The notes beneath the pieces were generated by a model. The model did no database searches, was not told the origin of the DNA, and saw only the letters and a program-made list of their open reading frames with translations. Below, piece after piece: positions 9,938 through 46,328 of a DNA stretch of 49,114 bases. Each line of letters starts with the position of its first letter. The first letter of the stretch is position 1. This DNA is from a virus (taxonomy: Duplodnaviria > Heunggongvirae > Uroviricota > Caudoviricetes), in IMG/VR virus record IMGVR_UViG_2513237200_000008; one strand, written 5' to 3'. The position numbers were made by a program, and so were the translations under genes.

Positions 9938-10651
9938 TTAACCCGGATTTGGTTTCTTCGACGTGATCGTGCTGCCGCCGCTTTGAACGCCAGTCACATC
10001 GTGGCTGTGGCCGCTGGCGCTCACGCCGTTGATAACTGCATCTTTCTCGACCTTGAGAGGGCCAATCAGCGAAGCGGTTGTATCCTTCATTTGTTCTTTG
10101 TCCTGTACGATTGGACCGTTGAGATGAATTTTCCCGTTCATGAAGATATCTTCGGCCTCGAGGTAAACAGCTTTCGACTTTAGCCTGATTTCTTCCGGTG
10201 CCACCGTTACCGAGCTACTGCCGTCCTCTGTTTTGAGGATCGCGCCATCCGGACCGTACAAAACTATTTTTTGCGGATCTTCGTCGGACCAGTCCTTGTT
10301 TGCCAGTGGCACGAAAAACAGTGGAGTGAGCGACATCGAGTAAGAGAGCGTCGCCATACCGGTTCCCAATCCAGACACACCGCGCAGTGATACATCAGCG
10401 GCAATTGTTACTCCTCGATCGCCCGGCTGTATCGGGTAACGAATATACGGGAATGTGGCGACAGGGATTGTTATCTGCGGAAAGTTGATCCCCTCCGGCA
10501 GCATATCAAACTGAACTGTCACTATCTGCCCGCTGACATCGACAACATGGCAGGGCAATTCACGGCCTTTAAGCTCGGCTTGCTGGTTACCAGAACTGGT
10601 CATCATCTCTGACAGCGTTCGGAGAAACGGTATTTTTTGAGCGTTTGACAT
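9938..10651 (-). CDS. Baseplate assembly protein V-like (Mu gp45-like spike)
   Basis: 237-aa ORF in the baseplate position. Confidence 0.6.
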   Translation of the reverse strand: MSNAQKIPFLRTLSEMMTSSGNQQAELKGRELPCHVVDVSGQIVTVQFDMLPEGINFPQITIPVATFPYIRYPIQPGDRGVTIAADVSLRGVSGLGTGMATLSYSMSLTPLFFVPLANKDWSDEDPQKIVLYGPDGAILKTEDGSSSVTVAPEEIRLKSKAVYLEAEDIFMNGKIHLNGPIVQDKEQMKDTTASLIGPLKVEKDAVINGVSASGHSHDVTGVQSGGSTITSKKPNPG

Positions 10652-12592: not shown

Positions 12593-14581
12593 TTACCCCG
12601 GTATTTGTTGCGTTCCGGCGAGTTGTGCCAGTATGTCGGAACCTGGCGATTGTCGCACCTGAAGCTCAATTATTGCGCGGGCATTTTTGCCAGCACCCTG
12701 AAGGTTATCTTTGGCATTTCTTAGCTGATTCATAATACCAGGGTGTTGATCCAAGGCTCCTTGTATCTGAGGCAATAATTTAATTAAATATTTTACAGTC
12801 TCCATTCTCAAACTTAGATTTCCATCTCTATCAATACGACCTCCGTTATATGCCGTAAGCATTTTTGCCACATCGCCTTTATAACGCCGATTCAGATCAT
12901 TTAAAAAGCGGCCAGCCGCAAGAGTGGATTTATTTGGGTCATAAACATCATCTCCCACCAGACCATACTGTTTTGCGGTGCCATCCCAGAATTGCCACAA
13001 CCCCTTAGCATAATTGCCATTTTCATCGGGGCTTCCTTTCGCTAGGGGATTCCACGATGATTCGGCTTCTGCAATTGCAGACATCATATTTTTAGGAAGT
13101 CGATAAGTATTATTGGCTTGCTCTACAAAGTTCTGAATATTTCTCTTTAAATCATTAGGCATACGGTAATTTTTATATACATCATCCTGTTTATAAAACT
13201 CACCCGTATACTGATTTGTCATCGGGTTTGCTCCCGGCAACGCACCGCCGAGATATTTATCCCCAAATGCCACAAGAACTGGATCTGCCTGTTCAGCACC
13301 AACTCCGGTTCCGGGGAGATATTTATCTTCCCCGCCGATCCATTTGATAGCTGACCATATTGCTTTTGCAATCCGGCTCACCGCCAGAGAAAAATCATCA
13401 AGATCATTTTTAAACTGTTCACTATTTAGCCACTTACCAAGTTTCTCCAACCCTTCTCCAGCCTCAGTGAGAATTATTTTAAAATTTCCACCATTCAGAA
13501 AACCTTCAATATTGGATGTCAGCCCATCAGATGCACCTCTGATTAATGGGTTATATCTGGCAAGAGCTGCATACCAAGAATTTGATATTCTGTTTCCATT
13601 TACCATCAGGTTACTCACCGTATCCTGATAATCTGACTGCATAGCTGGCGTGAGGTAAGCGCCGAGTAACCGGGTATTTGCTGCAAATTTCTCATTCAGT
13701 TGGGGGATCTTGTCCAGATTCGCTTCCACCTGGTTAGTTGTCGCGACATCAACAAATCCAAGTCCTTGTCCGTTGAGAATCCCCTGAGTAAGTCCTGAAC
13801 CTTTATATTGCTTAACTAGAGATGCAAGCGCACTCATAAGTTTGGGCAGATTCTTTGCTGCACCATCTCGCGGATCAATTCCAAGACTAACCAGACCAGC
13901 ATAGTTTGGATCGTTTGGATTTTTCTGTGCGTTCGCCAGATGCTGAACCAGTTCTTCTGTGCCAGAAAAATATGGCGAATAGGTGGCACGTGCGGCCTGC
14001 ATTTGGGCGGTTTCCATCCCTAACCCCTGAGCCACGCTATACTGTGCTGCGACTTTACTTGCCATATAGCCGTAGCCAAACGGCCCCGCAACCCCTATTG
14101 CAGCTATTTTCGCCCCCCACGAAACCGTGGTTTTAAACAGGCTTTTTAACCGGGAATTAGTCGTTTTAAGCGTTGAATTGATCTGTTTGTAAGTTTTCAG
14201 CGTCCCCTGAGCGTTTTTACCCAGCCCGTTGAGGTACTTATCAAACATCGTTTCGCCGCGACCTTTATAGTTGCTCACCAGCGAATCAGGTGTTTTCCCG
14301 CTTCCAACAAAGCGCCCTTTTTCATCCCTTAAACGTCCATCAGTGGAAGCAGCCGAAACTGGCTCGGGTGAAGATGGTTTCCTGGGAGCCTGATTGGCTT
14401 CTCCGCCTGTGGTTGTCTGCCGGGCGCCACCTGCCGGACCTGTATTTGAAGGTATTTTAAGCGGCGTACCGGCAGGGCCAATCATCAGCCCGTTGCGATA
14501 CTTTTCAAATATCGCCTCAAGTCGCTTAAGATGTTCTTCATTAACGTCCAGTGTCAGAACTGGCATCTGATTACCTGACAT
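12593..14581 (-). CDS. Tail tape measure protein with a C-terminal lytic transglycosylase (SLT) domain
   Basis: 662 aa; motif AIAEAESSWNPLAKGSPDENGNYAKGLWQFWDGTAKQYGL is typical of SLT catalytic regions; position after the chaperone genes. Confidence 0.7.
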   Translation of the reverse strand: MSGNQMPVLTLDVNEEHLKRLEAIFEKYRNGLMIGPAGTPLKIPSNTGPAGGARQTTTGGEANQAPRKPSSPEPVSAASTDGRLRDEKGRFVGSGKTPDSLVSNYKGRGETMFDKYLNGLGKNAQGTLKTYKQINSTLKTTNSRLKSLFKTTVSWGAKIAAIGVAGPFGYGYMASKVAAQYSVAQGLGMETAQMQAARATYSPYFSGTEELVQHLANAQKNPNDPNYAGLVSLGIDPRDGAAKNLPKLMSALASLVKQYKGSGLTQGILNGQGLGFVDVATTNQVEANLDKIPQLNEKFAANTRLLGAYLTPAMQSDYQDTVSNLMVNGNRISNSWYAALARYNPLIRGASDGLTSNIEGFLNGGNFKIILTEAGEGLEKLGKWLNSEQFKNDLDDFSLAVSRIAKAIWSAIKWIGGEDKYLPGTGVGAEQADPVLVAFGDKYLGGALPGANPMTNQYTGEFYKQDDVYKNYRMPNDLKRNIQNFVEQANNTYRLPKNMMSAIAEAESSWNPLAKGSPDENGNYAKGLWQFWDGTAKQYGLVGDDVYDPNKSTLAAGRFLNDLNRRYKGDVAKMLTAYNGGRIDRDGNLSLRMETVKYLIKLLPQIQGALDQHPGIMNQLRNAKDNLQGAGKNARAIIELQVRQSPGSDILAQLAGTQQIPG

Positions 14582-14873
14582 TCAATACACCTCCCGGCGT
14601 CGTGCATTTACGCAGCTCACGAAACTGAGCTGCTGTTTTTACATTCAGACCGGAATTTGCCCAGATGTCGCTGAATCCGTCTCCGGCTGAGTAGTCGAGG
14701 ATGTCGCTGATAACGTGCTCGCCGTCGCGCCAGAACTGGCGACAGGCTTCAATGTCGGCAATGAAGCAATCCATTCCGTAAGACTCAAGGATGAAGTGCG
14801 ACTGTTCCACATTCCACTGACTGCCAGCATCATCTGCTCCGTCTGCTCCGGTGTGTTTATCGACGAGACGCAT
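14571..14873 (-). CDS. Tail assembly chaperone -1 frame extension (GT-like)
   Basis: Overlapping ORF in the -1 frame relative to 14645-15274; the slippery run at 14876-14883 lies just upstream. Confidence 0.45.
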   Translation of the reverse strand: MRLVDKHTGADGADDAGSQWNVEQSHFILESYGMDCFIADIEACRQFWRDGEHVISDILDYSAGDGFSDIWANSGLNVKTAAQFRELRKCTTPGGVLNVR

Positions 14874-15274
14874 GTAAAAAAAACGAGTTCACCTGCCACA
14901 TCATCAAATTCAACGATGCCGCGCTCCAGCGCCATATCAAGCGGGAGCGTGTCATAACCTTTCCCTTCGACTGGGTAAACCAGATTCGCAAGGCGAATGA
15001 TTTCATTCACGAGCGTATTACGAACGCCCTTTTCGCCATCCCAGATGTTCATATCTGAGGAGATCCGTTCCAGCATAAGGCAGGCGATACGCGGACCCGC
15101 AACGACGCCAAGACCTTCAGAAAAAATGGCAGAAAAAGTTTTACTCAGAATGAAGAAATGCTCTTTAAACACCTCTTTGCTGATCGGCGTGGCATGGATC
15201 CAGCCGTTACCCTTTTCTGTCCGGACAGGAATAATCAGATTCAGATTTCGGGAGATTTTCATACCAGATCCCAC
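14645..15274 (-). CDS. Tail assembly chaperone (G-like)
   Basis: Position between the tail tube and tape measure genes; contains a T8 slippery run. Confidence 0.55.
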   Translation of the reverse strand: MGSGMKISRNLNLIIPVRTEKGNGWIHATPISKEVFKEHFFILSKTFSAIFSEGLGVVAGPRIACLMLERISSDMNIWDGEKGVRNTLVNEIIRLANLVYPVEGKGYDTLPLDMALERGIVEFDDVAGELVFFTCVSSINTPEQTEQMMLAVSGMWNSRTSSLSLTEWIASLPTLKPVASSGATASTLSATSSTTQPETDSATSGQIPV

Positions 15275-15702
15275 ATTTCAGAGTTGATGTAATACGTACC
15301 GGTAATGGTGATGGCCACACCCGGCTCGCCCCCAGCGAAGGTCATATCCTGCACGTTGGTGATCGCCGTGTTATAGATATCGAAGTCACCGAACACCGTG
15401 CTGTCGCTATACACTTTTGCGTCGCCGATCGTGGCGTTCTTTTCCCATTGCGCCTTGAATTGTTTCCCCTGCGCCTGGCTACGCAGCAGATGAACACGCG
15501 CCTGTAAAATCATGTATGGCTGCGGCGACTGCACGGCTCCCGTCATGGCGGGTAAAAACTCCGTGATATTGCCCTGAAAGGACAATTCGACGCCTTCTTT
15601 TGCCAGAAATGAGGCGGACACATTCAGTTCGGAATGAGAGGTGAATTTAACGCTGGCGCGAACCCGGTTAAGGGTGCCAACGGGGATCATTGGATTAGGC
15701 AC
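15259..15702 (-). CDS. Tail tube protein
   Basis: 147 aa, directly downstream of the sheath gene. Confidence 0.6.
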   Translation of the reverse strand: MPNPMIPVGTLNRVRASVKFTSHSELNVSASFLAKEGVELSFQGNITEFLPAMTGAVQSPQPYMILQARVHLLRSQAQGKQFKAQWEKNATIGDAKVYSDSTVFGDFDIYNTAITNVQDMTFAGGEPGVAITITGTYYINSEMWDLV

Positions 15703-15713
15703 GGTTCAGTCCC

Positions 15714-17051
15714 TCACGAAAGCTGCATTGTCACATTGATGTTAAAAATGATTTCGACAAATCCGCGCATCGGCGTATAGGAGGCCGAAAGGCCCGCATA
15801 ACGCCCGATACCGTAATCATTCGGATTCGTGTTGATATACTGGCGGAAAGGCACTGCATCTACGACAGGCTGGCCGTTGACCAGGCCGTAAGATACGCCC
15901 GTATTGAACACCGCCTGTGCGACCTGCTGCAGACGGTCGATCCCGTCCTGGTTGTAGTAAAGCGGGTTAATTGGGTTATTGCAGCCGTTGATCACCGCGT
16001 TGGCGAGCTGCATATCGACGTTAATCTGCACCCAATCCACGGAATACCAGTACGTCATATCGTTACCGTCACTGGTAACGCCTTTCACCAGGATCGTGTT
16101 GGAGATTCCACCCTCAGCACCCGTTTCGATGTAGTTAATATTCTGCTTCGTCATCGTGGCCAGAATGGAATTTTTGCCCTTGTGGGCGTTTACCGCCTGT
16201 AAATAGCGAAATGCCATCGGCGGCACCTTGTTGATTTCTGAAGGTGATGCGGAAACATAGTTCCACATTACGGCTGCTGCCGCGTTTGTCGCTGGGTACG
16301 TATCATCCGCCGTTGCAATAACCGACTTAATACCGGCATAAGGCGAAACGTAATTCGTGTCGTCCGGCGTTTTCGTCAGCACGAAGAAATACTGCATCGC
16401 TTCGTTGGCGGTGTGGAGTTTTGCCAGACTGATAAATTCTGCGTCACCATCCCACCGCTGCGGCACCAGATACGCATAAAACCGCAGGAGCGGATCTTCC
16501 ATATAAGCTTTCAGTGCAGCGATTTCCTTACTGATCCCGCCTTTCTGTACTCCCAGCTCCAGCAGGTAAATCCCAACTGAATTTCCCTGGGCAAAAAACG
16601 TGTTTACTGCCGTCACCAGATTTTCACTGCCGACAATGGAAAACTGCCCCAGTGTCACTGGCGAACCGGAAAGCTGAGAATCAGCAATCGTCCAGGTCAG
16701 TGTTTTTTCATCCGTGACGGTAGCAGTATATTCGCCATTCCACGCGTCGGGCGAACACCCGGAAACAACAATTTTCACCTCAGAACTGTTTTCGCGTCGG
16801 ATGTTGCTCCCTTCCGGAAGCGTCATCGTAACGGTGACGTTTGCCGCAGATTTTCCTGCGGCAGCCGCCGACAACGCAGCAATCGGATTTTTAACCAGAT
16901 CGTTAATATCCTGATTGCTGGTGAGTAATACAGGCTTCCCCGGCTCATGAGTCGTGGAGCCAAACGAGAGAACCGCAGACATCTGCTGCAAATTCGAGGG
17001 TATAGCCCCGATGGTCTGGGACACATTCACCGTGACGATATTAAATCCCAT
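15714..17051 (-). CDS. Tail sheath protein
   Basis: 445 aa; size and position typical of contractile-tail sheath proteins. Confidence 0.65.
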   Translation of the reverse strand: MGFNIVTVNVSQTIGAIPSNLQQMSAVLSFGSTTHEPGKPVLLTSNQDINDLVKNPIAALSAAAAGKSAANVTVTMTLPEGSNIRRENSSEVKIVVSGCSPDAWNGEYTATVTDEKTLTWTIADSQLSGSPVTLGQFSIVGSENLVTAVNTFFAQGNSVGIYLLELGVQKGGISKEIAALKAYMEDPLLRFYAYLVPQRWDGDAEFISLAKLHTANEAMQYFFVLTKTPDDTNYVSPYAGIKSVIATADDTYPATNAAAAVMWNYVSASPSEINKVPPMAFRYLQAVNAHKGKNSILATMTKQNINYIETGAEGGISNTILVKGVTSDGNDMTYWYSVDWVQINVDMQLANAVINGCNNPINPLYYNQDGIDRLQQVAQAVFNTGVSYGLVNGQPVVDAVPFRQYINTNPNDYGIGRYAGLSASYTPMRGFVEIIFNINVTMQLS

Positions 17052-19386: not shown

Positions 19387-20415
19387 TTATGCGTATTTGG
19401 CAGACAACAGGGTGATCCCCTCAGGGCGGAAGTTCCAGCCCGGCGTCGCGCGCATCGTATACAACGTGGTCAGGCCGCCATCCGGCATAGGGGACGGAAT
19501 TTCCGTCGGCGCTGCCATATCACAGAACATCACGTTGACGGCCTGCTGGTTAGGTACCAGCGTGGAGAAAATATTGGTGTTAATGGTGTGACGCGCTTCC
19601 GGAACCTCAATCGTCGGGTTCGTAACGATGATCAGGTCATTACCACCAGCGCCTTTACCGATCAGCGTGTCATCCTGGCAGAAAATGATGTCGTCGCCTG
19701 TCGCCTTATCGGCGACGTCTTTAACCATCGTTCCCACCGTTCCGGTACCACCACCAGGACGCTGGTAATTGGTCAGCTCAACAATTCCTGTCCACTCCAG
19801 CGCCTTCATGAATCGCTGTGGGCTCAGAATAACAGTCGTTAATGGCTGCCCCAGCAGCAACATGCGGGTTTTCTGGTCAGCAATCAGGCCAAGCATAAAT
19901 TTAGCCATCTCACCGGAATCCCAGGTGGTATATGAATCATTCCCTTTGCTGTCGTTGCCCAGATTCAGCGTCACTGCGTTCGGGGAGTTGGTGATCCCCT
20001 CGTTATTAGCTGCATTCACGCCATACAGCAGCATATTACGCAACATTTGAGCGTGTCCCTGACGGTTAGCCAGGCGCAGGCCTTCAATCAGAGAATAGCC
20101 CCAGCGATCTGCTGCATCAGTATCGAGATAGCTGTATTGCGAGCGGGAAGAAATTCGGTAAGTCATCATTCCGTCATAGCCGCCAGAGATACTGGAAGAC
20201 GGTAACTGACCCGGCAGAGACTGGCTGACCTGCGCCTGCGAGGTCATGCGCAGATATTTCTGATAGACCATCAAATCACTGGAACTGATTTTTACCGCTG
20301 GAGCACCACCAGCCAGGACTTCAAACGCCCCGGAAGCCATGCTCTGTTGCACGATCATTTCCGGCAGCACCATTGACGGCGACACAATAGTAGTCGCAGG
20401 AGTAAATGCGCTCAT
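19387..20415 (-). CDS. Major capsid protein
   Basis: 342 aa; position after the scaffold/decoration genes and portal. Confidence 0.65.
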   Translation of the reverse strand: MSAFTPATTIVSPSMVLPEMIVQQSMASGAFEVLAGGAPAVKISSSDLMVYQKYLRMTSQAQVSQSLPGQLPSSSISGGYDGMMTYRISSRSQYSYLDTDAADRWGYSLIEGLRLANRQGHAQMLRNMLLYGVNAANNEGITNSPNAVTLNLGNDSKGNDSYTTWDSGEMAKFMLGLIADQKTRMLLLGQPLTTVILSPQRFMKALEWTGIVELTNYQRPGGGTGTVGTMVKDVADKATGDDIIFCQDDTLIGKGAGGNDLIIVTNPTIEVPEARHTINTNIFSTLVPNQQAVNVMFCDMAAPTEIPSPMPDGGLTTLYTMRATPGWNFRPEGITLLSAKYA

Positions 20416-31281: not shown

Positions 31282-31356
<75 letters not shown>

Positions 31357-31359
31357 ATA

Positions 31360-31435
<76 letters not shown>

Positions 31436-43727: not shown

Positions 43728-46328
43728 ATGAGCACAAAACCACTCTTCCTGTTACGGAAAGCGAAAAAATCATCCGGTGAACCTGACGTCGTCCTGTGGG
43801 CAAGCAACGATTTTGAATCGACCTGTGCCACTCTGGACTACCTGATCGTTAAGTCAGGTAAAAAACTGAGCAGCTATTTTAAAGCTGTTGCCACGAATTT
43901 TCCTGTCGTTAATGACCTGCCCGCTGAAGGTGAGATCGATTTTACCTGGAGTGAACGCTATCAACTCAGCAAAGACTCCATGACATGGGAACTAAAACCG
44001 GGAGCAGCACCAGACAACGCTCACTATCAAGGCAATACCAACGTCAACGGCGAAGACATGACTGAGATTGAGGAGAATATGCTACTCCCAATTTCTGGCC
44101 AGGAACTGCCCATTCGTTGGCTTGCTCAACACGGCAGCGAAAAACCGGTAACGCACGTTTCACGCGACGGACTCCAGGCATTACACATTGCTCGGGCTGA
44201 AGAACTACCGGCTGTTACTGCCCTGGCTGTTTCCCACAAAACCAGCCTGCTCGACCCGCTGGAAATTCGCGAACTCCACAAACTGGTTCGTGACACTGAC
44301 AAAGTTTTCCCTAATCCTGGTAATTCAAACCTGGGACTGATAACTGCTTTTTTCGAAGCATACCTGAACGCTGACTACACCGATCGAGGACTGCTGACAA
44401 AAGAGTGGATGAAGGGTAATCGTGTTTCACACATCACTCGCACGGCTTCCGGTGCTAATGCTGGCGGCGGAAACCTCACCGATCGCGGCGAAGGTTTCGT
44501 ACACGATCTGACGTCACTGGCGCGCGACGTAGCCACTGGCGTACTGGCCCGTTCAATGGATCTGGACATCTATAACCTTCATCCGGCACACACTAAACGC
44601 ATTGAGGAAATTATCGCTGAAAATAAACCGCCCTTTTCTGTTTTCCGCGACAAATTCATCACCATGCCTGGCGGGCTGGATTATTCCCGCGCCATCGTGG
44701 TTGCGTCCGTAAAAGAAGCACCAATTGGGATCGAGGTCATCCCCGCGCACGTCACTGAATATCTGAACAAAGTACTGACTGAAACCGATCATGCCAACCC
44801 TGATCCGGAAATCGTGGATATTGCCTGCGGTCGCTCCTCTGCCCCGATGCCGCAGCGAGTAACAGAAGAAGGAAAACAGGATGATGAAGAAAAACCGCAA
44901 CCATCTGGAACAACGGCAGTTGAACAGGGAGAGGCTGAAACAATGGAACCGGACGCAACTGAACATCATCAGGACACGCAGCCGCTGGATGCTCAGTCAC
45001 AGGTAAATTCTGTTGATGCGAAATATCAGGAACTGCGGGCAGAACTCCATGAAGCCCGGAAAAACATTCCATCAAAAAATCCTGTCGATGCCGATAAATT
45101 GCTTGCTGCATCACGTGGTGAATTTGTTGACGGAATTAGCGACCCGAACGATCCGAAATGGGTAAAGGGGATCCAGACTCGCGATTGTGTGTACCAGAAC
45201 CAGCCAGAAACGGAAAAAACCAGCCCAGATATGAATCAACCTGAGCCAGTAGTGCAACAGGAACCGGAAATAGCCTGCAATGCCTGCGGCCAGACTGGCG
45301 GGGATAACTGCCCTGACTGTGGTGCGGTGATGGGCGACGCAACATACCAGGAAACATTCGATGAAGAGAGTCAGGTTGAAGCTAAGGAAAATGATCCGGA
45401 GGAAATGGAAGGCGCTGAACATCCGCACAATGAGAATGCTGGCAGCGATCCGCATCGCGATTGCAGTGATGAAACTGGCGAAGTCGCAGATCCCGTAATC
45501 GTAGAAGACATAGAGCCAGGTATTTATTACGGAATTTCGAATGAGAATTACCACGCGGGTCCCGGTATCAGTAAGTCTCAGCTCGATGACATTGCTGATA
45601 CTCCGGCACTATATTTGTGGCGTAAAAATGCCCCCGTGGACACCACAAAGACAAAAACGCTCGATTTAGGAACTGCTTTCCACTGCCGGGTACTTGAACC
45701 GGAAGAATTCAGTAACCGCTTTATCGTAGCACCTGAATTTAACCGCCGTACAAACGCCGGAAAAGAAGAAGAGAAAGCGTTTCTGATGGAATGCGCAAGC
45801 ACAGGAAAAACGGTTATCACTGCGGAAGAAGGCCGGAAAATTGAACTCATGTATCAAAGCGTTATGGCTTTGCCGCTGGGGCAATGGCTTGTTGAAAGCG
45901 CCGGACACGCTGAATCATCAATTTACTGGGAAGATCCTGAAACAGGAATTTTGTGTCGGTGCCGTCCGGACAAAATTATCCCTGAATTTCACTGGATCAT
46001 GGACGTGAAAACTACGGCGGATATTCAACGATTCAAAACCGCTTATTACGACTACCGCTATCACGTTCAGGATGCATTCTACAGTGACGGTTATGAAGCA
46101 CAGTTTGGAGTGCAGCCAACTTTCGTTTTTCTGGTTGCCAGCACAACTATTGAATGCGGACGTTATCCGGTTGAAATTTTCATGATGGGCGAAGAAGCAA
46201 AACTGGCAGGTCAACAGGAATATCACCGCAATCTGCGAACCCTGTCTGACTGCCTGAATACCGATGAATGGCCAGCTATTAAGACATTATCACTGCCCCG
46301 CTGGGCTAAGGAATATGCAAATGACTAA
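43728..46328 (+). CDS. recE: Exodeoxyribonuclease VIII (RecE), full length 866 aa
   Basis: Full-length match from memory to E. coli Rac RecE; overlaps the recT start. Confidence 0.9.

What the first reader, a model, noticed from the sequence alone, without database searches (positions are those of the whole stretch)
14571..15274. Candidate programmed -1 ribosomal frameshift in the tail assembly chaperone pair (G/GT-like)
Between the tail tube and tape measure genes, a 209-aa ORF is overlapped by a 100-aa ORF in the -1 frame. A T8 slippery run on the coding strand (A8 at 14876-14883 on +) lies inside the first ORF just upstream of the second; a -1 slip there would fuse ...AGELVFF to YMRLVDKHTGADG.... 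This matches the conserved chaperone frameshift seen in long-tailed phages.
Basis: partly seen in the sequence, partly recalled or inferred. Interest (0 to 1): 0.4.

Follow-up and report, generated by a model that had tools for sequence, protein, structure and literature searches.

The report
Frameshifted tail chaperone with long overlap
Between the tail-tube and tape-measure genes of this E. coli prophage, a run of eight T's very probably lets some ribosomes slip back one base to make a second, longer tail-assembly protein; this is a familiar phage trick, unusual here because both reading frames stay protein-coding for about 76 codons after the slip.

Summary
ORF1 (205 aa from ATG 15262, minus strand) contains GTT TTT TTT (T8, 14876-14883). 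The 100-codon ORF2 lies in the -1 frame. A -1 slip gives ...GELVFF|YMRLVDK... and ends 11 nt inside the tape-measure gene.

A T7/T8 run is not unusual in this window, so the support is comparative. Among 136 non-identical related loci (down to about 30% protein identity), 132 keep an in-phase T_TTT_TTT. After it, the -1 frame stays open 93-116 codons and the zero frame 53-77 codons. The third frame closes after a median of 5. The -1 ORF has no conserved start codon. Database records annotate only ORF1, as hypothetical.

The interpretation (a lambda G/GT- or P2 E/E+E'-type programmed -1 frameshift) is supported but not proven. Transcriptional slippage would give the same protein.

One feature differs from the paradigms. 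The short product continues 76 codons past the slip, against about 6 in lambda and P2. About 40 of these residues are under purifying selection and are confidently predicted to fold with the N-domain, so the overlap is dual-coding. No sequence or fold match to known chaperones was found; the function is inferred from gene position.

The parts
14645..15262 (-). ORF1, the zero-frame short product ('G-like' or TAC-N-like), 205 aa plus the TGA stop at 14645-14647
   Evidence: It is annotated as a 618-nt hypothetical CDS in Rac-SA53, pPE4 and RefSeq E. coli. It matches phrog_11810. The AF2 model has pLDDT 88.5 and is structured through about aa 170.
14876..14883 (-). T8 run on the coding strand. 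The slippery heptamer T_TTT_TTT is 14876-14882 (zero-frame codons gtT TTT TTT).
   Evidence: It is conserved in phase in 132 of 136 unique related loci. The Phe codons F128 and F129 are invariant columns in the 66-sequence family alignment.
14571..14876 (-). The -1 frame segment ('T-like' part), read from the Tyr codon TAC (14876-14874) to the TAA stop (14571-14573). Joined to ORF1 residues 1-129 it gives a 230-aa fusion.
   Evidence: It matches phrog_14324. The domain is conserved across lineages. The AF2 model of the fusion has pLDDT 83.6, with a helical T part at aa about 146-221.
14648..14875 (-). Dual-coding overlap of 76 zero-frame codons lying over the -1 frame
   Evidence: Codon-position diversity and substitution classes show the zero frame dominating selection over about 14753-14872 and the -1 frame over about 14648-14752. 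Both frames are open in all lineages, while the third frame closes after a median of 5 codons.
14889..14894 (-). Shine-Dalgarno-like AGGTGA, ending 6 nt upstream of the heptamer; a possible but unproven stimulator
   Evidence: In the anti-SD duplex scan, 24-32% of lineages have an SD-like site at this distance, and 62% have GGAGGT 12-16 nt upstream, against a 6% background. The site is confounded by the Gly-Glu codons.
12593..14581 (-). Tape-measure-position gene (662 aa, SLT lytic transglycosylase domain at aa 486-583). Its ATG (14581-14579) overlaps the end of the -1 ORF by 11 nt.
   Evidence: Its homologues are annotated as tape measure protein in RothC and PdC23.
15259..15702 (-). 147-aa gene in the tail-tube position. 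Its stop overlaps the ORF1 start (ATGA).
   Evidence: It matches phrog_6566, of unknown function. The tube assignment rests on position after the sheath, and on the structural assignment of a tail tube in the related RothD core module (PMC12629751).
15714..17051 (-). Tail sheath gene (445 aa)
   Evidence: phrog_205 tail sheath, E=9.5e-55. There is also a weak DUF3383 match.

Best explanation
[quoted passage not shown] Ribosomes translating ORF1 reach GUU UUU UUU with tRNA-Phe in both the P and A sites. Most continue in the zero frame and make a 205-aa protein: N-domain, two or three further helices, then a disordered Ser/Thr/Ala-rich tail. A minority slip back one base, and both tRNA-Phe re-pair perfectly on UUU. 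These ribosomes read UAC (Tyr) next and continue for about 100 codons in the -1 frame. They stop at UAA 14573-14571, inside the start of the tape-measure gene. The result is a 230-aa fusion that shares residues 1-129 with the short protein and then carries a different helical C-terminal domain. By analogy with lambda gpG/gpGT and P2 gpE/gpE+E', the two proteins would coat the tape measure, and the long form would recruit the tube protein. Here the slip site lies inside the fold of the short protein rather than at its end, so the next 228 nt encode parts of both proteins. What is shown: the sequence geometry, its conservation, selection in both frames, and predicted folding of both products. 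What is inferred: that slippage happens, that it is ribosomal, its efficiency, and the chaperone function.
For: Geometry. Conservation of the in-phase heptamer across 136 unique loci down to about 30% protein identity. Nucleotide-level selection for T: TTT in 67 of 68 slip-site Phe codons against 34% elsewhere (p about 1e-30), and the preceding codon ends in T whether it encodes V, I, C, A or T. The -1 frame is open 93-116 codons after the run in every lineage except the two T9 variants, and it ends at or overlapping the next gene's start. Ten of 34 lineages have no candidate start codon for the -1 ORF, and the window's ATG 14873 has no properly spaced SD. Homology switches frame exactly at the run in tblastn against distant phages. 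The minimal conserved unit is the 7-nt heptamer: 17 unique loci have T7 rather than T8, which fits a ribosomal mechanism better than a length-dependent polymerase one. U_UUY is the second most shift-prone tetramer class in E. coli (PMC4066793). P2 uses TTTTTTG without a downstream structure in the same sheath-tube-chaperone-tape measure context (PMC3091744). Zero-frame extension: changes that are synonymous in -1 but non-synonymous in zero are suppressed at ORF1 nt 391-510 (0.34-0.49, against 0.92-0.96 for synonymous changes upstream). AF2 pLDDT is 93-96 for aa 131-170. The family-wide SL motif is nearly invariant.
Against: No protein or RNA data exist, so synthesis of the fusion is unproven. 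No downstream stimulatory structure was found: the window z-score is +1.98, and the mean percentile across 34 lineages is 0.52. U_UUU_UUU is much less shift-prone than A_AAA_AAG in E. coli (PMC5009743). The window lacks the well-spaced GGAGGT seen in most relatives; it has only AGGTGA 6 nt upstream. A T8 run could also support RNA polymerase slippage, which would give the identical fusion. No sequence or significant fold similarity to any known tail assembly chaperone was found, so the function rests on synteny.
Confidence: 0.8

Rival explanations
1. Transcriptional slippage instead of, or in addition to, ribosomal slippage. RNA polymerase adds one extra U while copying the A8 template run. 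The resulting U9 mRNA reads GUU UUU UUU UAC AUG and encodes exactly the same fusion protein.
For: Homopolymer runs of A or T are known polymerase slippage sites, and UUUUUUU is under-represented in all three frames of E. coli genes, possibly for that reason (PMC4066793; PMC5009743). T8, one base longer than the heptamer requires, is the commonest form (116 of 136 unique loci). No RNA stimulator for ribosomal shifting was found downstream. A 2022 study of T4-like phages, known to me only through citations in PMC12846349 and PMC10885494, argued for a non-frameshift route to the long chaperone form.
Against: Seventeen unique loci have only T7, one has A_TTT_TTT and one has T_TTT_TTC. To my knowledge, runs this short slip poorly in transcription. 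The eighth T follows from Val or Ile (GTT/ATT) at the preceding residue and is lost whenever that residue is Cys, Ala or Thr. An SD-like sequence at a fixed distance upstream in 62% of lineages makes sense only for a ribosomal mechanism. Sequence alone cannot settle this.
Confidence: 0.12
2. There are two separate, heavily overlapping genes. ORF2 is translated independently from its own ATG at 14873 and gives a free 100-aa protein with no recoding.
For: An ATG follows the run directly in the window and its close relatives. Some gene callers report ORF2 as a separate protein (phrog_14324; P0125).
Against: The ATG is confined to the E. coli-like clade. Ten of 34 lineages have no ATG, GTG or TTG at all in the relevant stretch, and where a start codon exists it usually lacks an SD. 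The invariant features are the T-run and the -1 frame Tyr codon, not a start codon. AGGTGA lies 15 nt (14888-14874) upstream of the ATG, too far to serve as its ribosome binding site.
Confidence: 0.05
3. Nothing functional is present. ORF2 is a chance open frame, or the locus is a decaying or mis-sequenced gene, and the T-run is incidental.
For: T7 runs occur at chance frequency in the window (27 against 25.4 expected). Several database entries differ by indels at or near the run.
Against: The geometry is the same in 136 unique loci from many hosts. The -1 frame shows a coding pattern of substitutions, with third-position diversity 0.38 against 0.16-0.17 in the part with no overlap. Its domain motifs are conserved. 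The fusion gives a confident AF2 model. The third frame, as a control, closes after a median of 5 codons.
Confidence: 0.02

Closest known systems
Phage lambda gpG/gpGT (programmed -1 frameshift at G_GGA_AAG; Levin, Hendrix and Casjens 1993; Xu, Hendrix and Duda 2004, 2013, 2014, as summarised in PMC5009743)
   Same: Two overlapping ORFs lie between the major tail or tube gene and the tape-measure gene. The second ORF is in the -1 frame and has no start of its own. An in-phase X_XXY_YYZ heptamer is present. The long ORF ends overlapping the tape-measure start: lambda T 10115-10549 against H from 10542, and here 14571 against 14581.
   Different: Lambda G stops 19 nt after the T frame opens (10115 to 10133), whereas the zero frame here runs on for 76 codons that are under selection. 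The slip motif differs. Lambda is a siphovirus. There is no sequence similarity (hhalign probability 0.05%).
Phage P2 gpE/gpE+E' (programmed -1 frameshift at TTTTTTG; Christie et al. 2002, as cited in PMC3091744)
   Same: The context is a contractile tail with the order sheath, tube, chaperone, tape measure. The slip site is a T-run decoded by tRNA-Phe. No downstream RNA structure is present. E+E' ends 8 nt inside gene T.
   Different: P2 E is only 91 aa and stops 20 nt after the annotated slip site (19685 to 19705). The short product here is 205 aa and stops 228 nt after it. There is no sequence similarity (hhalign probability 0.3%).
TAC-N/TAC-NC pairs with a conserved GTTTTT motif proposed in Vandenendeviridae and Andersonviridae myophages (PMC12846349)
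   Same: The signal is poly-T, the downstream ORF is unannotated or 'hypothetical', and the argument rests on the -1 frame being open in all relatives.
   Different: That motif is described as lying near the 3' end of TAC-N; here it lies at residue 129 of 205. The protein family is different.
E. coli dnaX and IS-element -1 frameshift signals with an upstream Shine-Dalgarno stimulator
   Same: Most family members have an SD-like GGAGGT 12-16 nt upstream of the heptamer, and there are signs of nucleotide-level preference: GAG over GAA (p=0.02) and a preceding G (p=0.004).
   Different: The window itself has only AGGTGA 6 nt upstream. The motif overlaps conserved Glu-Val codons. There is no downstream hairpin, unlike dnaX.

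Membership tests
Tail assembly chaperone pair made by a programmed -1 frameshift (lambda G/GT type, Xu et al. 2004) | The pair is located between the major tail or tube gene and the tape-measure gene. | tested here: met
   The order is sheath (phrog_205), a 147-aa gene, ORF1/ORF2, then a 662-aa SLT-domain protein annotated as tape measure in relatives.
Tail assembly chaperone pair made by a programmed -1 frameshift (lambda G/GT type, Xu et al. 2004) | The second ORF is in the -1 frame, overlaps the first, and has no conserved start of its own. | tested here: met
   Ten of 34 lineages have no candidate start codon.
Tail assembly chaperone pair made by a programmed -1 frameshift (lambda G/GT type, Xu et al. 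2004) | A slippery heptamer X_XXY_YYZ lies in the zero-frame phase within the overlap. | tested here: met
   T_TTT_TTT at 14876-14882. It is in phase in 132 of 136 unique relatives.
Tail assembly chaperone pair made by a programmed -1 frameshift (lambda G/GT type, Xu et al. 2004) | The signal and the two-frame arrangement are conserved in related phages. | tested here: met
Tail assembly chaperone pair made by a programmed -1 frameshift (lambda G/GT type, Xu et al. 2004) | [quoted passage not shown] This is typical of the family rather than strictly defining. | tested here: not met
   There are 76 zero-frame codons after the slip here, and 53-77 across the family, against about 6 in lambda and P2.
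Tail assembly chaperone pair made by a programmed -1 frameshift (lambda G/GT type, Xu et al. 2004) | Both the short product and the fusion are actually made, at a fixed ratio. | not testable with these tools
   This needs proteomics or reporter assays.
Tail assembly chaperone pair made by a programmed -1 frameshift (lambda G/GT type, Xu et al. 2004) | The proteins act as chaperones: they bind the tape measure, the long form recruits the tube protein, and both are absent from virions. | not testable with these tools
   Inferred from synteny only.
Known tail assembly chaperone protein families (Pfam Phage_TAC families, lambda gpG, P2 gpE, solved TAC structures) | Sequence or fold homology to a recognised chaperone. 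| tested here: not met
SD-stimulated -1 frameshift signals (dnaX type) | A Shine-Dalgarno-like sequence lies about 10-14 nt upstream of the heptamer. | tested here: inconclusive
   In the family, 62% of lineages have one at 12-16 nt against a 6% background, with modest codon-choice support. The window has AGGTGA at 6 nt only.
Hairpin- or pseudoknot-stimulated -1 frameshift signals | A stable structure lies 5-9 nt downstream of the heptamer. | tested here: not met
   The window folds less well than shuffled sequence (z=+1.98). The downstream window in 34 lineages is no more structured than other windows of the same genes (mean percentile 0.52).

The most novel reading that the evidence does not exclude
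The frameshift does not merely add a domain to a finished chaperone. It acts as a switch placed inside the fold. The two products share residues 1-129 and then carry alternative C-terminal modules encoded by the same 228 nt in two frames. Over about 20-25 codons (ORF1 nt about 440-510) both frames encode predicted helices. The short form also ends in a family-conserved C-terminal S-x-P-S-like motif. This architecture is conserved in a large, unannotated chaperone family (644 clusters at 50% identity) that includes the proposed Felixviridae. It would be a distinct type of tail assembly chaperone pair and a clean natural example of long-lived dual coding maintained by recoding.
Probability: 0.55. 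Interest if true: 0.55.

Novelty: new variant of a known kind. Interest (0 to 1): 0.4.

Why it matters
In practice, every record examined omits the long product: four of the phage GenBank records show no -1 ORF or frameshift at all, and both RefSeq E. coli records leave its distal 64 nt as 'intergenic'. The family has 644 clusters at 50% identity, and 91 of 5426 complete E. coli genomes carry this module. Annotation could be corrected with a simple rule: an in-phase T_TTT_TTT followed by A. In concept, the locus extends the conserved tail-chaperone frameshift to a protein family with no detectable homology to known chaperones. It also shows a variant in which the short product needs about 40 structured residues encoded after the slip site. 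That makes a long overlap selected in both frames, which is useful for studying how overlapping genes partition constraint. It also gives a tractable genetic handle: a single C-to-A change at 14865 on the coding strand would truncate the short product (TCG to TAG) while staying synonymous in the -1 frame (CTC to CTA).

Tried and rejected
1. Downstream stimulatory RNA structure. The window's 141 nt around the site fold worse than shuffles. A 34-lineage comparison of the 45-nt downstream window with other windows of the same genes showed no enrichment. Rejected.
3. Database proteins that look like single-ORF fusions (P0001-P0004, P0124, P0126, P0131 and others). I considered them as evidence for natural fusions. 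P0001-P0004 each switch frame at a different place, and two IMG/VR loci simply have T9, so these are best read as indel variants or homopolymer errors. I did not use them as evidence for the fusion protein, only as alignment rows for structure prediction.
4. Openness of the zero frame as a by-product of the -1 protein. Synonymous recoding gives 0.07-0.56 per lineage, so no single genome is significant. Only the joint pattern is (product 5e-19 over 29 not fully independent lineages), together with the third-frame control and the substitution classes.
5. A +1 (third-frame) product. That frame closes after 7 codons in the window (...FFLHASRR*) and after a median of 5 in the family; no support.
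The genome-contig scan returned a single locus. PMC135442 (Christie 2002) is not held.
Full report
**1. What is in the sequence**

On the minus strand the window carries a contractile-tail module. The sheath gene is at 15714-17051 (phrog_205 tail sheath, E=9.5e-55). A 147-aa gene in the tube position follows at 15259-15702. Then come ORF1 (14645-15262), ORF2 (14571-14873) and a 662-aa protein with an SLT lytic transglycosylase domain (12593-14581). Relatives annotate this last protein as the tape measure.

The wider window is a complete prophage. It has terminase, portal, protease, head, baseplate hub and wedge, tail fibres and a RecE-like exonuclease.

ORF1 most plausibly starts at ATG 15262. 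That start overlaps the upstream stop as ATGA, homologues begin MKI..., and GenBank and RefSeq annotate it that way. The 209-aa figure in the finding is the mechanical ORF from an upstream GTG.

The coding strand reads CTC GTT TTT TTT ACA TGC. The T8 run is at 14876-14883, as stated in the finding. T_TTT_TTT (14876-14882) is in the phase needed for tandem -1 slippage of two tRNA-Phe. After a slip the next codon is TAC, giving ...AGELVFF|YMRLVDKHTGADG..., again as stated. The -1 frame stops at TAA 14573-14571, 11 nt inside the tape-measure ORF, whose ATG is at 14581. ORF1 in the zero frame runs on for 76 more codons to TGA 14647-14645.

**2. Is it more than chance?**

A T7 run by itself is not unusual: the window has 27 against 25.4 expected. 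The evidence is comparative.

The two close phage records are Escherichia phage Rac-SA53 (97.6% identity) and 'Actinobacillus' phage pPE4 (91.9%). Both keep the T8 run and both ORFs, but annotate only ORF1, as hypothetical. A tblastn search with the predicted fusion found distant phages at 31-36% identity: Klebsiella phages Chronis, RothC and RothD, Shewanella phage QDWS and Pantoea phage PdC23. In the Klebsiella and Shewanella phages the match comes in two pieces that change frame at a T8 run; in PdC23, which has a T7 run, only the N-terminal piece matched.

The family is large. An exhaustive HMMER search found 644 clusters at 50% identity with E<=0.001. Two scans of IMG/VR fetched 160 loci.

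Over the 136 non-identical loci:
- The run is T8 in 116, T7 in 17, T9 in 2 and T6 in 1.
- The in-phase heptamer is TTTTTTT in 132, ATTTTTT in 1 and TTTTTTC in 1. The two T9 loci simply fuse the frames into a 227-aa ORF.
- The next base is A in 135 of 136, so the -1 codon is UAY (Tyr).
- After the site the -1 frame is open for a median of 100 codons (93-116, apart from the two T9 loci).
- The zero frame is open for a median of 62 codons (53-77, apart from the two T9 loci).
- The third frame, as a control, is open for a median of 5 codons.

Selection acts at the nucleotide level. The two Phe codons at the site are TTT in 67 of 68 cases, whereas TTC makes up 66% of Phe codons elsewhere in the same N-domains (p about 1e-30). 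The codon before them ends in T whatever it encodes (GTT, ATT, TGT, GCT or ACT). F128 and F129 are two of only four invariant columns in a 66-sequence alignment with a mean column identity of 30%.

**3. The -1 ORF is a fusion partner, not a separate gene**

Ten of 34 diverse lineages have no ATG, GTG or TTG in the -1 frame between the upstream stop and 30 codons past the run. Where a start codon exists it is not conserved and usually lacks an SD. The window's ATG 14873 is specific to its clade.

The -1 frame encodes a conserved domain with the motifs YG..F.AD.D.GRE.WR.G, GF and FRQRHL. Where it does not overlap ORF1, it shows a coding pattern of diversity: third position 0.38 against 0.16-0.17. 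It ends at or overlapping the next gene's start in most lineages, as in lambda and P2.

AF2 models the 230-aa fusion at pLDDT 83.6 and pTM 0.79, even from a 13-row alignment. The model has a disordered linker at aa 138-149 and a helical domain at aa about 146-221.

**4. The zero-frame continuation is also real coding sequence**

In lambda the G frame stops 19 nt after the T frame opens, and in P2 gene E stops 20 nt after the annotated slip site. Here the distance is 228 nt. Four lines of evidence indicate that the zero-frame stretch is selected as protein.

- *Openness.* It is open for 53-77 codons in every lineage. Synonymous recoding of the -1 protein leaves it open with probability 0.07-0.56 per lineage (geometric mean 0.23). 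The product over 29 lineages is 5e-19, and the reciprocal test for the -1 frame gives 4e-34. The lineages are not independent, so these figures are indicative only.
- *Codon-position diversity.* In 56 non-identical sequences of the E. coli-like clade, the third position stands out upstream of the slip (0.48 against 0.15 and 0.11). In the overlap neither frame's wobble position stands out (0.25 and 0.24). A sliding window shows the zero-frame pattern at ORF1 nt 391-510 and the -1 frame pattern from about nt 541.
- *Substitution classes.* At nt 391-510, changes that are synonymous in -1 but non-synonymous in zero occur at 0.34-0.49 of possible sites, against 0.92-0.96 for synonymous changes upstream. 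At nt 511-615 the same class rises to 0.66-0.79, while changes that are synonymous in zero but non-synonymous in -1 fall to 0.34-0.37.
- *Predicted structure.* AF2 with the 66-sequence alignment gives pLDDT 88.5 overall and 93-96 for aa 131-170. It predicts helices 119-135, 138-152 and 161-167 and a short strand, and a disordered aa 171-205. The family alignment shows a conserved ...TSL..TE...SLPTST... motif (S167 and L168 at 90% or more) and a conserved S-x-P-S-like C-terminus.

The constraint is therefore handed over along the overlap. Where the short protein is folded, the fusion mostly has a linker. Where the T domain is folded, the short protein has a disordered tail. Between them lies a stretch of roughly 20-25 codons (about nt 440-510) that is helical in both models; its last part (nt 481-510) has among the lowest diversity in the overlap. 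The slip site lies inside helix 119-135 of the short protein. The two products therefore share aa 1-129 and then differ.

**5. Stimulators and mechanism**

No downstream structure was found. The window folds less well than shuffles (z=+1.98). In 34 lineages the downstream window is no more structured than other windows of the same genes (mean percentile 0.52). P2 likewise lacks one (PMC3091744).

Upstream, an anti-SD duplex scan shows a sharp peak 12-16 nt before the heptamer. There, 62% of lineages reach -6 kcal/mol or lower, against a 6% background, and the sequence is GGAGGT. This overlaps conserved Glu-Val codons. Even so, GAG is preferred over GAA (23:6 against 178:126, p=0.02), and the preceding wobble base is G in 17 of 29 lineages (p=0.004). 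The window itself has Asp there and only an AGGTGA ending 6 nt upstream. SD stimulation is therefore a hint for the family and remains unsettled for this locus.

According to the literature, U_UUY is the second-best shift-prone tetramer class in E. coli (PMC4066793), but U_UUU_UUU is far below A_AAA_AAG (PMC5009743). A low efficiency would suit a chaperone pair; the lambda ratio is about 30:1 (PMC5009743).

Transcriptional slippage on the run would give the same protein and cannot be excluded. The T7, A_TTT_TTT and T_TTT_TTC lineages and the positioned SD-like motif favour the ribosomal route.

**6. Comparison with what is known**

Functionally and positionally this is the conserved tail-chaperone frameshift of Xu, Hendrix and Duda. 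The nearest parallel is P2 E/E+E', which has a contractile tail, a T-run slip site and no hairpin. A similar poly-T proposal exists for Vandenendeviridae and Andersonviridae (PMC12846349).

The relatives RothD and Chronis belong to the recently proposed myophage family Felixviridae. The paper describing that family does not mention a chaperone frameshift (PMC12629751). RefSeq (PGAP) leaves the last 64 nt of the -1 ORF as intergenic.

**7. Verdict**

The kind of element is well known. What is new is its presence in an unannotated, homology-orphan family, together with the long overlap selected in both frames and the slip site inside the fold. I compared the overlap length only with lambda, P2 and one published description, so how unusual it is among all chaperone pairs remains to be surveyed. 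Interest is moderate.

Noticed in passing
L002 (PP818812.1, 'Actinobacillus phage vB_Apl-pPE4'), whole locus; matches window 14400-15800: A phage recorded as infecting Actinobacillus pleuropneumoniae is 91.9% identical in DNA to this E. coli prophage module, with the same gene order as Escherichia phage Rac-SA53. The host attribution looks doubtful; the phage may be an induced E. coli prophage or a contaminant.
   Followed up: no
OK094664.1 (Shewanella phage vB_Sb_QDWS, L005) and OP650936.1 ('Hujiaoplasma phage zrk29-1'): The two records have the same length (47902 bp) and identical tblastn identity, E-value and score to the query, but name different hosts: Shewanella baltica and a Tenericutes bacterium. 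They are probably one genome deposited twice.
   Followed up: no
L077 and L079 (IMG/VR), T-run at locus position about 2880; proteins P0001-P0004 and P0121: Two loci carry T9 instead of T8, giving a single in-frame 227-aa fusion ORF. Several database proteins are indel variants at or just after the run; P0121 has T7 and ends in the third frame. These are homopolymer sequencing errors or genuine length polymorphism at the slip site, and I did not resolve which.
   Followed up: partly
Family loci, 12-16 nt upstream of the heptamer (e.g. L091 2869-2874); window equivalent 14889-14894: A GGAGGT Shine-Dalgarno-like motif sits at a fixed distance upstream of the slip site in 62% of diverse lineages (background 6%). 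Codon choice adds modest support beyond the Glu-Val amino acids. The window has only AGGTGA, closer in.
   Followed up: partly
window 14645-14660 (C-terminus of ORF1) and the equivalent place in relatives: The zero-frame product ends with a conserved short motif: S-[VI]-P-[S/H/T] in most of the family and IPV in the window. The motif follows a poorly conserved disordered tail, and the stop falls at a conserved place opposite the L-D-W motif of the -1 frame. This may be a functional C-terminal peptide.
   Followed up: no
window 14560-15270 against NZ_CP026085.1 2563929-2564639: The region is 100% identical to the chromosome of an assembly labelled E. coli DH5alpha. To my knowledge, DH5alpha is not expected to carry an intact myovirus prophage of this type. 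Related modules occur in 91 of 5426 complete E. coli genomes, always on the chromosome, with up to 4 places per genome.
   Followed up: no
window 12593-14581 (minus strand): The tape-measure-position protein carries a C-terminal SLT lytic transglycosylase domain (aa 486-583, E=7e-20). Most records name it 'lytic transglycosylase' rather than tape measure.
   Followed up: no
window 31282-31435 (minus strand) and 43728-46328 (plus strand): Two adjacent tRNA genes, Gly(tcc) and Thr(tgt), lie inside the prophage. An 866-aa RecE-like exonuclease VIII lies in the early region. This fits a Rac-type recombination module joined to a different, myovirus structural module.
   Followed up: no
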